The notes under the pieces are model-generated. The model was not told where the DNA came from. It saw nothing but the letters and a program-made list of their open reading frames with translations, and ran no database searches. Position numbers and translations under genes: made by a program. Of a stretch of DNA of 41,578 bases, positions 298-8,554 are shown piece after piece. Every line of letters begins with the position of its first letter. Within the stretch, counting starts at the first letter, position 1. Origin of the DNA: Solirubrobacteraceae bacterium (GTDB lineage: Bacteria; Actinomycetota; Thermoleophilia; Solirubrobacterales; Solirubrobacteraceae); the NCBI GenBank assembly GCA_039922645.1, contig JBDTEE010000151.1:1-41578 (forward strand), written 5' to 3'.

Positions 298-663
298 ATG
301 CCCGCCGTCCCCCATCTCTACGACCTGATGCTTGTGATCTCGACGACCGTCGAGGACGAACGTCGCGCCAAGATCCTCGTCGACGTGGAGGCCCAGATCT
401 CCTCCGGCGGTGGGCTCATCGAGCGCAACGACGACTGGCATACGCGCACGCTGGCCTACGAGATCCGCCATCAGCGCGAGGGTGAGTACCACCTGATCCA
501 GTTCAGCACCGGATCGACCGAGCTGCTGGACTCGCTCTCTCACACCCTCCGCATCGATGACGCCGTGCTTCGCTTCCGGGTCATCAAGAGCCTGCCCGGG
601 ACGCCTCCGCCCCCGGACGCTGTGCCCCCCGTGACCGCTGCCGCGGTCACCCCTGAGTCCTAA
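298..663 (+). CDS. rpsF: 30S ribosomal protein S6
   Basis: YDLMLVI..DDWHTRTLAYEI..EGEYHL..LRIDDAVLRFRVIK; upstream of ssb-rpsR-rplI. Confidence 0.93.
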   Translation: MPAVPHLYDLMLVISTTVEDERRAKILVDVEAQISSGGGLIERNDDWHTRTLAYEIRHQREGEYHLIQFSTGSTELLDSLSHTLRIDDAVLRFRVIKSLPGTPPPPDAVPPVTAAAVTPES

Positions 664-895
664 GCCTGCTTTCGGCGCGCCGGTTTCGGTGCGTCTCACC
701 GGCGCCCCGACCCGCCAGCTGCCCGGCCAACGCGGCATCTCTTTCTACATACGGCCAATGACGATGGGTGCTGCGGCGGCCAGCCTCGAACGCGTGTACG
801 GAAACCTCGCCCCCACCGGAGGCCTGTCGCCCTTTCGGAGTCATCACCAGTCCGTGTCCGCTCGCGGCTTCAGGCGAAGCTGAAATGGGAGACGC

Positions 896-1429
896 ATGGA
901 CCCCGGACTCGAGGATGGCGGCTCGGTCCGCTGCCCCAACGTGGCCATGCTGCTGGACGGCGGCGGCGCCGCTGCACCCCTCTACACCCGTCTGCGCGAG
1001 GACGAGGAGCTCGGGACGGTCCCGATTGTGGTCAGTGTGGAGCCCGACCGCCTGGCCCTCAGCGAGGAGATGCTCGAGGTGCACGAGCTGATCGTCTCGC
1101 CGTTCACGGCCGCGGAGTTGAGTACCCGGATCGCCCGCGCTCGCCTGGTGGTTCACGGCGTCGGAGAGCACGAGGCGATCCGCGAGGACGGGCTGGAGCT
1201 CCACCTGGCCGCCCATCAGGCCAAGCGCGACGGCGAATCTCTCGAACTGACCTTTATGGAGTACGAGCTACTCAAGTTCCTCATCACCCATCCGGCCCGC
1301 GCGTTCTCCCGCGAGGCGCTGCTGACCAGCGTCTGGGGTTACGACTTCTTTGGGGGCGCACGCCCACCAGCGCCGGCGGACCGTGCGGCGGGTTGGCTAC
1401 CGGTGGGAGGCCTAGTAGCCGAGCGCTGA
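896..1429 (+). pseudogene. Truncated OmpR-family (GlnR-like) winged-helix regulator
   Basis: LELTFMEYELLKFL..RAFSREALLTSVWGYDFFGGAR then loses the expected TVDVH.RRLR recognition helix; receiver N-terminus degenerate. Confidence 0.7.
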
Positions 1430-2159: not shown

Positions 2160-2483
2160 ATGGCTAAGCAACGTAGACGACCGGTCCGCCGGCGCGATAG
2201 GAAGGGCGGGCCGACTTCGACCCGCCGTAAGTCGTGCCCGTATTGCCGCGACAAGGTCGAGCAGGTCGACTACAAGGACATCGGCACGCTGCGCCGGTTC
2301 ATCTCCGAGCGTGGCAAGATCCGGTCCCGCCGCATCACGGGCGCCTGCCGTCGTCACCAGAGTCAGGTCGCCCGCGCAGTCAAGCGGGCCCGCGAGCTCG
2401 CTCTGCTCCCGTACGTCGCTGAATCCAGTGGCGGCGATCACCGGGAGCGGGGCCGCGACCGAGACCGCGACCGCGACCGCTAG
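2160..2483 (+). CDS. rpsR: 30S ribosomal protein S18, Zn-binding (C+) form with RD-rich tail
   Basis: [47 protein letters not shown]. Confidence 0.97.
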
Positions 2484-2492
2484 GAGGCCAGG

Positions 2493-2942
2493 ATGGCCCA
2501 GGCGATTCTGCTCCAGGACGTGGAGAAGCTCGGTGAGCGCGGGATGGTCGTCGACGTCTCCAACGGCTACCTGCGCAACTACCTTCTGCCTCGCAAGCTG
2601 GCCGAGCCCGCCACCTCATCCTCCATTCGCGTGGCTGAGAAGCGCCGGCAGGAGGCCGAGCGGGCGGTCCAGGAGGCCGAGGAGCGAGCGCGAGAGAGCG
2701 CCTCGGTGCTCGGGCGGACCGTGCTCACGATTCCCCAGCAGGCGGGCGATGACGGCCGTCTGTTCGGTTCGGTGACCACCCAGGACATCGCTGATGCCAT
2801 CCGCGACGCCCGGGGGATCCGCATCGATCGCCGCAAGATCCACCTCGAGGACCCGATTCGCAACGTCGGGACCTACATGGTGGTGGTCGAGATCGCCGAC
2901 GACGTAACCACGGCGGTCAAGACCATGGTCGTCGCCTCCTAG
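2493..2942 (+). CDS. rplI: 50S ribosomal protein L9
   Basis: ILLQDVEKLG..VSNGYLRNYLLPRKLA..GRLFGSVT; SD AGGAGG overlapping the rpsR stop. Confidence 0.97.
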   Translation: MAQAILLQDVEKLGERGMVVDVSNGYLRNYLLPRKLAEPATSSSIRVAEKRRQEAERAVQEAEERARESASVLGRTVLTIPQQAGDDGRLFGSVTTQDIADAIRDARGIRIDRRKIHLEDPIRNVGTYMVVVEIADDVTTAVKTMVVAS

Positions 2943-3056: not shown

Positions 3057-4418
3057 ATGAGCGCGGTTCAGAACATCGCCGTCCCCCCGCACAACCTCGA
3101 GGCCGAGAAGTCTGTGCTCGGCGCGGTGCTCCTGGACGAGCGGCATCTGCAGTCGCTGCTGGTCGAGGAGCAGCTTCGACCCGAGCACTTCTACCGAGAG
3201 CAGTACGGCGCGGTGTTCGCGGCCATGCTGTCCCTCTACCAGCACGATCGCAAGATCGACCACCTGACCGTCGCCGAGACGCTGCGCCAGAACGGCAAGC
3301 TCGAGGAGGTCGGCGGTCCCGAGACGATCGACGAGCTCTCGGGTTGGGTACCGGCCGCCGGGCATTCGCGCGAGTACGGGCGGATCGTCCGCGACAACGC
3401 CCAGATGCGGGCCCTGCTCACGACCTCGTACGAGATTCAGGCCAGCGTGCTCGCTCGCGAGGCGCCGGCACGAGAGCTGGTCGAGAAGGCCGAGCGCTCC
3501 GTGCTCGAGGTGGCCCAGGATGATCGCCAGAAGAAGATCCGTTCGATCGCGGACATCCTGGATGAGGAGACGGAGAAGCTTCACCGCCTTTCGGTCTCCA
3601 AGACCGCGCTGACCGGCACCCCGTCGGGATTCAAGGATCTGGACGAGAAGACGGGCGGCTTCCAGCCCGGCAACCTGATCGTGCTGGCCGCCCGGCCGTC
3701 AATGGGCAAATCCGCGCTGGTGGCCAACATCGCCGAGAACGCTGCACTGGCCGAACAGCCGGTGGTCCTGTTCTCGCTCGAGATGTCCGAGTCGGAGTTG
3801 GCCCAGCGCTTCGTCGCCTCGCAGGCCCGAATCCACGGCGAGGACCTGCGCCGGGGCAAGGTGGCCGAGTCGCGCTGGCCGAAGATCCTCGAGGCCTGCC
3901 AGCGCCTCGCTGCGGCACCCCTGTATGTCGATGACTCAAGCGACACCGGCGTGCTCGAGGTGCGGGCCAAGGCGCGGCGACTGCATGGGAAGATCCCCGG
4001 CGGCCTGGGGCTGATCATCATCGACTACCTGCAGCTGATGCGTCATGAGGGCCGGGTCGAGAGCCGGGTCGAGCAGGTGGGCCAGATCAGCCGTGGTCTG
4101 AAGGGCCTGGCCCGTGAACTCAACGTCCCGGTTATCGCGCTCTCCCAGCTCAGCCGCGCCGTCGAGCAGCGCGGCGGGGATGAGAAGAGGCCGATCCTCT
4201 CCGACCTGCGCGAATCCGGGCAGATCGAGCAGGACGCGGACCTGGTCATGTTCATCTACCGCGACGAGTACTACAAGAAGGCCGAGTCCGAGCGCCCGGG
4301 CGAGGCCGACATCATCATCGCCAAGCACCGCAACGGGCCGGTGGGTGAGGTCGTCCTGACCTTCCAGAAGGAGTACCCGAAGTTCATGAACTACGCCGGT
4401 GAGCGGTTCTCTCAGTGA
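3057..4418 (+). CDS. dnaB: Replicative DNA helicase
   Basis: PPHNLEAEKSVLG, AARPSMGKS, FSLEMS, IIIDYLQLM, LSQLSR, SDLRESGQIEQDAD, IIAKHRNGP; no intein. Confidence 0.98.
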   Translation: MSAVQNIAVPPHNLEAEKSVLGAVLLDERHLQSLLVEEQLRPEHFYREQYGAVFAAMLSLYQHDRKIDHLTVAETLRQNGKLEEVGGPETIDELSGWVPAAGHSREYGRIVRDNAQMRALLTTSYEIQASVLAREAPARELVEKAERSVLEVAQDDRQKKIRSIADILDEETEKLHRLSVSKTALTGTPSGFKDLDEKTGGFQPGNLIVLAARPSMGKSALVANIAENAALAEQPVVLFSLEMSESELAQRFVASQARIHGEDLRRGKVAESRWPKILEACQRLAAAPLYVDDSSDTGVLEVRAKARRLHGKIPGGLGLIIIDYLQLMRHEGRVESRVEQVGQISRGLKGLARELNVPVIALSQLSRAVEQRGGDEKRPILSDLRESGQIEQDADLVMFIYRDEYYKKAESERPGEADIIIAKHRNGPVGEVVLTFQKEYPKFMNYAGERFSQ

Positions 4419-5101
4419 TTGACGAGTGCCCCTTCGGCCTCTGCGACGGTACTGGCTTTCAGTACGACGAGGAGACCAACACTGCGTTTGACTGCCGATG
4501 CCGGCCCCAGCGGGTGTCGCAGGCCAAAGCCCGCAGCCTCTCCGCGGTTATCCCGCGCCGCTACCGCGACGTGGCCTTCGACCGCCCGCCGGCAAGCGAC
4601 ATGGAGCCGACCATTGTGGCTGCGGCGCGCCGGTACGCGAGCACGATCGAAGATCAGCTCGACGCCGGCCGCGGGCTGTGGTTCATGGGCCCGCCCGGCA
4701 CGGGCAAGACCACGCTGTCCATGCTGGTCTCCAAGGCGGCGATCAAGGCCGGGCGATCCGTGGCCATCTACTCGCTGCCCCGGCTGCTCAACGAGATCCG
4801 CGACACGCACCGCTCCGAGCGCTCACATGTCGCCCTGCTCGACCGGCTGACCGAGGTGGACCTGCTCCACGTCGATGATGTCGGCGCGGAGCGCACCACC
4901 GATTGGGTGCTCGAGGAGCTCTACTCGATCGTCAACGGCCGCTATGAGGACCAGCGCTCAATGGTCATCACCACCAACATCCTCGATCGCGAGGCGCTGT
5001 GCGCTCAACTCACAGCCCGCACGGTCTCCCGCCTGACCGAGATGTGTGACGAGCTGCCACTGCTCGGCCACGACCACCGGATGGACCTGCGCTCCGCCTG
5101 A
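4415..5101 (+). CDS. DnaC/DnaI/IstB-family AAA+ ATPase with N-terminal Cys4 motif (candidate helicase loader)
   Basis: CPFGLCDGTG..CRC, Walker A GPPGTGKT, Walker B LLHVDDVG, ITTN, RTVSRL; GTG overlaps dnaB TGA (GTGA 4415-4418). Confidence 0.88.
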   Translation: MIDECPFGLCDGTGFQYDEETNTAFDCRCRPQRVSQAKARSLSAVIPRRYRDVAFDRPPASDMEPTIVAAARRYASTIEDQLDAGRGLWFMGPPGTGKTTLSMLVSKAAIKAGRSVAIYSLPRLLNEIRDTHRSERSHVALLDRLTEVDLLHVDDVGAERTTDWVLEELYSIVNGRYEDQRSMVITTNILDREALCAQLTARTVSRLTEMCDELPLLGHDHRMDLRSA

Positions 5102-5238
5102 GGCGCGTAACCGGTGGACGCAGCCCCCGCGTAGGCTCACGCGGTCAAGCCTGGCCCGATGCGACGCTGCCTTAGGGGGTGTTCTTCGCGATTACGCGCT
5201 AGAGGCGTAAACGCGAAGAAGGCCCCACGGCGGAACGG

Positions 5239-7219: not shown

Positions 7220-8554
<1,335 letters not shown>

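What the first reader, a model, noticed from the sequence alone, without database searches (positions are those of the whole stretch)
3057..5101. dnaB translationally coupled to a Zn-finger DnaC/DnaI-like ATPase: candidate domesticated helicase loader in an actinobacterial lineage
Seen: the chromosomal dnaB, in its core position after rplI, overlaps by GTGA a 228-aa AAA+ ATPase. The ATPase has an N-terminal CxxxxCxGxG..CxC motif, intact Walker A/B, TTN and SRL motifs. No IstA transposase, terminal repeats or phage genes are nearby. Established: most bacteria, including mycobacteria, load DnaB with DciA; DnaC (enterobacteria) and DnaI (Firmicutes) are thought to be phage-derived replacements. 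Inference: an independent helicase-loader capture fixed in the core locus, possibly with helicase replacement and loss of dciA. I cannot verify whether it has been described.
Basis: partly seen in the sequence, partly recalled or inferred. Interest (0 to 1): 0.8.

Follow-up and report, generated by a model that had tools for sequence, protein, structure and literature searches.

The report
Captured helicase loader beside shortened DciA
An entire order of soil actinobacteria has fixed a phage-type ATPase next to its replicative helicase gene, where it likely loads the helicase, yet it keeps a shortened form of the ancestral loader DciA, although the two kinds of loader were reported never to coexist.

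Summary
dnaB (3057-4418) overlaps a 228-aa Zn-finger DnaC-type AAA+ ATPase (4415-5101) by GTGA. It is not IstB: it has the Arg-coupler, falls in a separate clade and has no IstA beside it.

The gene is a core gene of Solirubrobacterales: 300 of 301 genomes, dN/dS about 0.15, inserted into the ancestral rplI-dnaB-purA order and kept even where it has moved away from dnaB.

dciA is intact between recF and gyrB here and present in 201 of 201 class genomes. But all 35 order DciA proteins examined lack the C-terminal DnaB-docking lasso that most sister families keep. One sister family has bare DciA without any fixed loader, which is a counterexample.

In Gaiellaceae, a related ATPase moves between genera together with its own dnaB allele (AU p about 1e-4). 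Rubrobacteraceae carry a separate DnaD/DnaI-type capture and lack dciA (0 of 41).

Best reading: a domesticated helicase loader that is co-maintained with a lasso-less DciA. This breaks the published mutual-exclusion rule, and I found no report of it. Binding to DnaB is untested.

The parts
298..663 (+). rpsF (S6), first gene of the core cluster
   Evidence: Pfam PF01250
1645..2115 (+). ssb
   Evidence: Pfam PF00436
2160..2483 (+). rpsR (S18), named from sequence and position
   Evidence: ORF; conserved in order in related loci; not scanned against Pfam
2493..2942 (+). rplI (L9)
   Evidence: Pfam PF01281/PF03948
3057..4418 (+). dnaB, the only replicative helicase found in the genome (453 aa, no intein)
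   Evidence: TIGR00665 510 bits; single DnaB_C hit
3537..3599 (+). DnaB linker helix (LH, about residues 161-181), half of the known loader-docking module; E171 in 23 of 23 order DnaBs, mostly S/G/T in sister families
   Evidence: alignment; role of the module from PMC9912922 passages
3864..3914 (+). DnaB docking/determinant helix (DH, about residues 270-286, W274)
   Evidence: alignment; PMC8216460 passages
4415..4418 (+). GTGA: dnaB stop overlapping the ATPase start (translational coupling inferred)
   Evidence: sequence; kept in frame in 69 of 110 loci
4415..5101 (+). DnaC-type AAA+ ATPase, 228 aa, likely domesticated helicase loader
   Evidence: phrog_50 6.6e-45; fold closest to DnaC 3ecc; 300 of 301 order genomes
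4427..4501 (+). N-terminal four-cysteine motif (C5, C10, C27, C29), predicted Zn finger
   Evidence: all four invariant in 40 of 40 rows, (C10 at least 90% in the 83-row set); beta hairpin in model; zinc binding not tested
4502..4537 (+). helix 30-41, basic; candidate DnaB-binding helix by position (inferred)
   Evidence: AF2 helix H30-41; composition; analogy to the E. coli DnaC helix, PMC9912922
4688..4711 (+). Walker A GPPGTGKT (K98 = E. coli DnaC K112)
4868..4879 (+). Walker B HVDD (D154/D155 = DnaC D169/E170)
4976..4978 (+). Sensor I N188 (= DnaC N203)
5018..5032 (+). Arg-coupler R202 and Arg finger R206 (= DnaC R216/R220); the coupler is absent from IstB
   Evidence: invariant in 83 of 83 rows; PMC8213410 passages
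5078..5080 (+). Sensor II R222 (= DnaC R237)
5176..5226 (.). 22-bp hairpin between the ATPase and the convergent gene; possible terminator (inferred)
   Evidence: inverted repeat I5; not called by the terminator scan
7226..8554 (+). purA, the ancestral downstream neighbour of dnaB (here separated from the ATPase by about 2 kb of other genes)
   Evidence: ORF; dnaB-purA adjacency in sister families

Best explanation
The 228-aa ATPase is a core gene of Solirubrobacterales and is likely a domesticated phage-type helicase loader that docks on the chromosomal DnaB and helps open and load it, probably alongside a retained DciA that has lost its own DnaB-docking tail. Shown: DnaC-type fold and catalytic residues, order-wide fixation, insertion between dnaB and purA, purifying selection, retention of dciA, and absence of the DciA lasso. 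Inferred: the Zn finger plus helix 30-41 binds DnaB's LH-DH module as E. coli DnaC's N-terminal helix does; up to six copies would oligomerise behind the DnaB C-terminal ring and release on ssDNA-triggered ATP hydrolysis gated by R202. The ATPase would have taken over docking from the lost lasso, and the remaining KH domain of DciA would still be used, as a ring-opening wedge or ssDNA binder.
For: Family: phrog_50 DnaC-like loader 155 bits, PRK08116 136 bits, against IstB NF038214 70 bits with cut-off 200. AF2 model pLDDT 88.5; best solved match is DnaC 3ecc, E 5.5e-11. All six DnaC catalytic positions are present, including the Arg-coupler that IstB lacks. Fixation: 300 of 301 order genomes at E<=1e-40; the miss holds a frameshifted copy. 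No comparable hit in 164 genomes of other orders (best 1.6e-17). dN/dS median 0.15 against 0.13 for DnaB over 82 pairs. ATPase and DnaB distances are correlated (rho 0.71, 23 genomes). dnaB is directly upstream in 32 of 36 order genomes; where the gene has moved (G053, G182, G706, G745) it is still kept. DciA has no C-terminal tail in 35 of 35 order genomes, against full tails in f6 5/5, f8 10/10, f12 1/1, f9 22/23 and f7 4/6. The lasso is the main DnaB-binding element (PMC9912922; PMC13501899). Natural experiment in Gaiellaceae: a related ATPase in the same slot co-segregates strictly with a distinct dnaB allele across genera (13 of 13 with the ATPase, 0 of 26 without seen within 1.5 kb downstream). 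The rplI tree rejects that grouping (AU p=1e-4) and the DnaB tree has it at 100. SOL DnaB is least like Gaiellaceae DnaB in LH and DH (20% and 32% identity, against 34% and 52% for the DciA-only control pair f6/f8).
Against: No binding, loading or essentiality data. Family f10 has equally bare DciA in 11 of 11 genomes and no fixed DnaC-like gene, and single bare or shortened DciAs occur in f9 and f7. Bare DciA is common elsewhere (Group 4, bioRxiv 2022.01.24.477630), and the Vibrio KH domain alone loads at about 60% (PMC13696075). So lasso loss does not require the ATPase; it is one evolutionary event, not 35. Gaiellaceae ATPase carriers keep the full lasso (5 of 5). Foldseek scores for IstB (8q4d, E 3.8e-10) and DnaC are close. 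No DnaD-like partner was found in the genome (77% complete). No close phage donor was found (<=35% identity among the top rows; 29-30% in viral contigs). The determinant position (W+5) is not diagnostic here: f6 and f10 also carry large residues. LH and DH are variable everywhere (39% within the order).
Confidence: 0.58

Rival explanations
1. Bare DciA still loads DnaB at oriC on its own, and the ATPase is an auxiliary DnaB factor for fork restart, or a shield against phage hijacking of the helicase.
For: dciA is universal and under purifying selection (dN/dS 0.19-0.30 in 4 pairs). f10 lives with bare DciA and no fixed loader. The KH domain alone can load. E. coli DnaC acts in restart (PMC8213410), and an anti-hijack role is proposed for captured loaders (PMC11087808).
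Against: 300 of 301 retention, including after relocation, is the pattern of an essential gene. dciA evolves faster than the ATPase in the same genome pairs (dN 0.15-0.29 against 0.045-0.16).
Confidence: 0.22
2. Replacement is functionally complete: the ATPase is the sole loader, and the residual DciA KH domain is kept for a job unrelated to DnaB loading, or because it is embedded in the recF-gyrB operon.
For: The lasso is missing in 35 of 35, with no separate lasso ORF in this genome. The isolated KH domain binds DnaB weakly or not at all in Vibrio and Mycobacterium.
Against: dciA is intact in 37 of 37 order genomes with dN/dS well below 1, whereas other captures lost dciA quickly (PMC5109545; Rubrobacteraceae 0 of 41).
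Confidence: 0.12
3. The ATPase is a resident gene whose client is not DnaB (for example a DnaA or origin regulator); its place behind dnaB is historical.
For: It belongs to the initiator clade, with weak DnaA/Hda matches. It is uncoupled from dnaB in at least three genera.
Against: It co-transfers strictly with a dnaB allele in Gaiellaceae; the overlap is conserved; its closest families are helicase loaders.
Confidence: 0.06
4. It is an orphan IS21 IstB or a passive prophage relic.
For: Its best Pfam hit is PF01695 IstB_IS21, which DnaC and DnaI share; the folds are similar.
Against: It scores far below the IstB cut-off and forms its own clade apart from IstB (100/100 against 100/93). It has the Arg-coupler and a Zn finger in place of the IstB N-terminus. 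The genome's two true IstBs look different, and one sits next to IstA. It is single-copy, order-wide and under purifying selection.
Confidence: 0.02

Closest known systems
Domesticated dna[CI] loaders (Brezellec et al. 2016, PMC5109545; passages, Discussion and part of Supplementary Data 1 read)
   Same: PF01695 ATPase of phage type, resident, single-copy, present across a whole order, under purifying selection
   Different: Not among the seven events named in the text, none of which is actinobacterial. dciA is kept, whereas the paper states that none of 1,426 genomes co-maintained both. Its table lists Conexibacter woesei with one PF01695 protein and one dciA; that this protein is the orthologue is my inference.
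E. coli DnaC
   Same: All catalytic positions align, including the Arg-coupler; fold E 1.9e-10
   Different: 22% identity; Zn-finger N-terminus in place of DnaC's long helical arm; encoded with dnaB, not with dnaT; host keeps dciA
Aquifex DnaC (3ecc) and Aquificae-type Zn-finger loaders
   Same: Best solved match (E 5.5e-11, 27% identity). The Persephonella plasmid homologue has the same CxxC-x-GxG...CxC start.
   Different: Not grouped with them in trees; the solved structure covers only the AAA+ domain
Bacillus DnaI
   Same: Zn-binding N-terminal helicase-interaction module plus AAA+ (abstract start of PMC1636449)
   Different: PRK08939 52 bits against cut-off 228; 228 aa against about 310; different Zn ligands; no DnaD/DnaB_2 partner found in this genome
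Vibrionaceae VdhL1/2 loader replacements (PMC11087808; passages read)
   Same: Repeated capture of viral loaders, with DnaB changes at the docking surface
   Different: Lambda-P-like and not AAA+; described as replacing dciA; the passages read describe no co-transfer of dnaB
IS21 IstB
   Same: Same Pfam family and fold
   Different: No IstA, no terminal repeats, Arg-coupler present, separate clade, single-copy core gene

Membership tests
DnaC/DnaI-type helicase loader | Initiator-clade AAA+ domain (PF01695) with Walker A/B, sensor I, Arg finger, sensor II | tested here: met
DnaC/DnaI-type helicase loader | Arg-coupler four residues before the Arg finger | tested here: met
   R202 invariant in 83 of 83 rows, aligned to DnaC R216; criterion from PMC8213410. 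Some other DnaC-like proteins lack it, so only its presence is informative.
DnaC/DnaI-type helicase loader | N-terminal domain that binds the DnaB LH-DH module | not testable with these tools
   The complex-prediction service was unavailable. A candidate helix 30-41 follows the Zn finger.
DnaC/DnaI-type helicase loader | Stimulates loading of DnaB on ssDNA; needed for initiation | not testable with these tools
   needs biochemistry and genetics
E. coli DnaC or Bacillus DnaI equivalog | Reaches the NCBIfam cut-off (PRK07952 357, PRK08939 228) | tested here: not met
   53.9 and 52.3 bits: works-like, not an orthologue
Domesticated (resident) dna[CI] sensu Brezellec 2016 | Present throughout a clade, outside mobile elements, under strong selection, vertical | tested here: met
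   300 of 301; core neighbours; dN/dS 0.15; distance correlation with DnaB. Tree congruence with a species tree was not formally tested.
Domesticated (resident) dna[CI] sensu Brezellec 2016 | Acquired at the expense of dciA (dciA lost) | tested here: not met
   dciA in 37 of 37 order genomes, intact between recF and gyrB; only its C-terminal lasso is missing
Domesticated (resident) dna[CI] sensu Brezellec 2016 | Phage origin: nests among phage loaders | tested here: inconclusive
   Closest families are phage loaders, but no close donor was found and deep nodes are unresolved
IS21 helper ATPase IstB | Adjacent istA and terminal inverted repeats | tested here: not met
   contrast L083 in the same genome
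IS21 helper ATPase IstB | NF038214 cut-off; groups with IstB; small residue at the coupler position | tested here: not met
   69.8 bits against 200; separate clades; R202

The most novel reading that the evidence does not exclude
Solirubrobacterales use a hybrid two-part helicase loader. The captured AAA+ ATPase supplies the DnaB docking and oligomerisation that DciA's lost lasso once supplied, and the retained DciA KH domain supplies the ring-opening wedge, so the replacement froze half-way for a whole order. With the mobile dnaB-plus-loader cassette in Gaiellaceae (full DciA kept) and the complete DnaD/DnaI-type takeover in Rubrobacteraceae (dciA gone), one branch of Actinomycetota would show three stages of loader replacement, and helicase-plus-loader co-transfer would be the way in.
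Probability: 0.3. Interest if true: 0.87.

Novelty: new variant of a known kind. Interest (0 to 1): 0.72.

Why it matters
Helicase loading is essential, and the accepted picture is that DciA and phage-derived DnaC/DnaI exclude each other, for reasons the original paper calls unknown. An order that has stably kept both, with DciA trimmed at its DnaB-docking part, is an exception that makes the question testable. It suggests the conflict may be competition for the LH-DH site, resolved by losing the lasso. The Gaiellaceae cassette shows that an essential helicase gene can be swapped together with its loader between genera, which offers a route for domestication. Rubrobacteraceae add a further capture not named in the paper's text. 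The order has cultured members, so the proteins can be assayed.

Tried and rejected
Complex prediction of two DnaB LH-CTD copies with the ATPase: the service was not available, so there is no result either way.

Search for a phage donor. The window protein and P0421 and P0308 found nothing in viral contigs, and P0311 gave only a short Walker A match. Profile A1 gave only distant loaders at about 30%. The metagenome scan gave two short matches. Searching the order with P0421 returned only the resident gene. The context of the divergent 'halo' homologues is therefore unknown.

Foreign origin of this order's DnaB: the best phage-collection hit is 45.6%, below Gaiellaceae at 48-50%. The trees lack other phyla, so this is neither shown nor excluded.

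Shared origin of the Solirubrobacterales and Gaiellaceae ATPases: not sisters in the best trees, but monophyly is not rejected (AU p=0.32).

Charge complementarity between the basic ATPase helix and an acidic LH: rejected, since LH net charge is -2 in carriers and non-carriers alike.

Determinant residue W+5 as a class-wide marker: rejected. It differs only within Gaiellaceae (A/T in 26 of 26 non-carriers, K/Q in 12 of 13 carriers).

Expression: no RNA holder listed; the one run laid is probably DNA.

Single-sequence fold of DciA was low confidence (pLDDT 59) and was not used. No sigma-70 promoter was found. Earlier-findings look-ups returned nothing. The review PMC10128896 was not held.

Full report
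Observation. The window holds rpsF, ssb, rpsR, rplI, dnaB (3057-4418) and a 228-aa ORF (4415-5101) that overlaps the dnaB stop by GTGA; purA follows at 7226 after about 2 kb of other genes. The host is a Solirubrobacterales genome, judged from record titles of the 80 closest loci. The assembly is 77% complete and holds one DnaB.

What the protein is. The best family matches are phage DnaC-like loaders (phrog_50, 155 bits) and PRK08116 (136 bits, under its cut-off). IstB, E. coli DnaC and DnaI models score 70, 54 and 52 bits, all far under cut-off. The AF2 model (pLDDT 88.5) has a Cys4 hairpin, helix 30-41 and an AAA+ domain. Foldseek ranks DnaC 3ecc first, with E. coli DnaC and IstB close behind, so fold alone does not decide. 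Sequence does. K98, D154/D155, N188, R202, R206 and R222 align to E. coli DnaC K112, D169/E170, N203, R216, R220 and R237; all but D154 are invariant in both alignments. R216 is the Arg-coupler, which IstB lacks (PMC8213410, passages). In a 61-row tree the orthologues form their own clade (100/100), apart from IstB (100/93), the Gaiellaceae group and the Rubrobacteraceae group; deep nodes are unresolved. The genome's two real IstBs are different proteins, one beside IstA.

It is a core gene. A profile finds it in 300 of 301 order genomes at E<=1e-40. Three genomes had two matches: one a split gene, one two partial contig-edge pieces, one two full copies. The single miss has a frameshifted copy; four of the 150 listed matches have an internal stop, which may be assembly error. 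Among 164 genomes of other orders of the class, the best hit was 1.6e-17. Median dN/dS against the window gene is 0.15 over 82 pairs, with DnaB at 0.13 (these pairs are not independent). GC3 matches its neighbours. The order rplI-dnaB-purA without the ATPase occurs in 17 of 60 outgroup dnaB loci, across eight families, so the gene is an insertion. In 32 of 36 order genomes dnaB is directly upstream. In two more the ATPase still precedes purA, and in G053 and G182 it sits elsewhere among housekeeping genes while dnaB and purA are adjacent; G706 and G745 from a later sample show the same. Retention after relocation argues against mere hitch-hiking.

dciA is not lost. PF05258 hits the own genome at 58.8 bits, between recF and gyrB, and 201 of 201 class genomes. 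It has dN/dS 0.19-0.30 in four pairs. What differs is its architecture. In all 35 order proteins examined (of the 37 genomes) the chain ends 32-51 residues after the conserved Trp. Tails of 75 or more residues with a helical hairpin occur in f6 5/5, f8 10/10, f12 1/1, f9 22/23 and f7 4/6. An HMM built from those tails hits none of the 35 and finds no separate ORF in this genome; it is circular for the positives. In Vibrio that hairpin or lasso docks on DnaB's LH-DH module, the same site DnaC's N-terminal helix uses (PMC9912922, passages). In Mycobacterium the lasso is the main binding element (PMC13501899, passages). That the Thermoleophilia tail is the equivalent lasso is inferred from position and helix pattern.

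Against over-reading the lasso loss. Family f10 has bare DciA in 11 of 11 genomes, and its only universal phrog_50 hit lies at the dnaA position, the rest being sporadic IstB-like genes. Bare DciA is common in other phyla (bioRxiv 2022.01.24.477630, passages). The Vibrio KH domain alone loads at about 60% and is the ring-opening wedge (PMC13696075, passages). The last point also gives a reason to keep the domain.

A natural experiment in Gaiellaceae (f8, named). A related ATPase (28-33% identical, with a different Cys spacing and no Arg-coupler) sits in the same dnaB-purA slot in 5 of 151 genomes. Within one genus, 9 of 25 loci carry it (G640 was not examined; one non-carrier is an unpublished genome, left out of trees). 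Their DnaB is 94-100% identical among carriers but only 60-63% identical to non-carrier congeners, while rplI (78-93%) and purA (84-90%) stay high. The 13 carrier DnaBs form one clade across three genera (100/99). On 31 genomes, the rplI tree needs six changes of carrier state and rejects a carrier clade (AU p=1.0e-4), while the DnaB tree needs one change and rejects the genus g59 that rplI supports (p=1.3e-4) (groups were named after a first tree had been seen). So dnaB and this ATPase move as a cassette that replaces the resident helicase gene. This is the best available evidence that such ATPases serve DnaB. These carriers keep full-length DciA (5 of 5). Whether the Solirubrobacterales gene shares an origin with the cassette is open (AU p=0.32). 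Their DnaB is monophyletic on a long stem with no resolved sister, so helicase replacement in this order is neither shown nor excluded.

A third case. Family f23 (proteins cluster with Rubrobacter entries, including Q1B006) carries a DnaD-like gene followed by a DnaC/I-like gene in 24 of 24 genomes for the ATPase, away from dnaB. It has no dciA over cut-off in 41 of 41 genomes. This is a classical replacement.

What is in print. [quoted passage not shown] Its table gives Conexibacter woesei one PF01695 protein and one dciA, and Rubrobacter xylanophilus one and none. The colour marking of resident genes in that table is not visible in the text copy, so I cannot see how those two were classed. 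Seven searches listed no paper on a loader in Solirubrobacterales, Gaiellaceae or Rubrobacter; the library lacks most subscription papers, and a 2023 review was not held. JGI pipelines already label many homologues 'DNA replication protein DnaC' automatically.

Verdict. This is a real, order-wide, apparently undescribed capture of a DnaC-type ATPase that most likely loads the chromosomal DnaB. I put about 0.9 on DnaB being its client and 0.58 on it sharing the loading job with a lasso-less DciA. The true state, co-maintenance with a trimmed DciA, is the more surprising one. All mechanistic steps remain inferred until binding and loading are measured.

Noticed in passing
L151, L163-L172 (family f23, Rubrobacteraceae): Fixed DnaD-like + DnaC/I-like + unknown phage-family gene module near a second ssb, away from dnaB; no dciA over cut-off in 41 of 41 genomes. 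A separate, apparently unlisted loader domestication.
   Followed up: partly
L177, L178, L250-L252, L368-L376 (Gaiellaceae): dnaB + DnaC-like ATPase cassette exchanged between genera at the rplI-purA slot, replacing the resident dnaB; full DciA kept.
   Followed up: yes
L275-L285 (family f10): Bare 98-108 aa DciA with a basic C-terminal end and no fixed DnaC-like gene; another loader was not looked for.
   Followed up: partly
P0288-P0419: About 30 divergent Zn-finger ATPases branch around and within the resident clade; one cluster has a member on a Solirubrobacteraceae MAG contig. Possibly the mobile donor pool; context unknown.
   Followed up: partly
L410, L413, L416, L417 (G706, G182, G053): ATPase relocated away from dnaB (next to a mislocated aconitase-type cluster, or between lepA-like and murJ-like genes, named by eye); G706 has two full copies in similar contexts, possibly a binning duplicate.
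   Followed up: partly
L014, L029, L030, L038, L058, L060, L098, L418: dnaB of several relatives is interrupted near residue 387 by in-frame insertions of about 0.6-1.25 kb, likely inteins.
   Followed up: no
L183 and L188 (G039, G063): 66-78 aa Cys/His-containing ORFs directly after dnaB in ATPase-less Gaiellaceae; relation to the cassette unknown.
   Followed up: no
window 768-1429: Apparently broken response-regulator-like ORF between rpsF and ssb (only 41 of 77 positions of Trans_reg_C).
   Followed up: no
window 2400-2483: rpsR ends in a Asp-Arg repeat tail.
   Followed up: no
L083, L084 (own genome C47, C114): Two IS21-type IstB genes, one directly after an IstA-like transposase; used as internal controls.
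   Followed up: yes
P0391 cluster: Homologues with the same Cys-motif start in Candidatus Sumerlaeota, on long contigs; whether resident and whether dciA is present was not checked.
   Followed up: no
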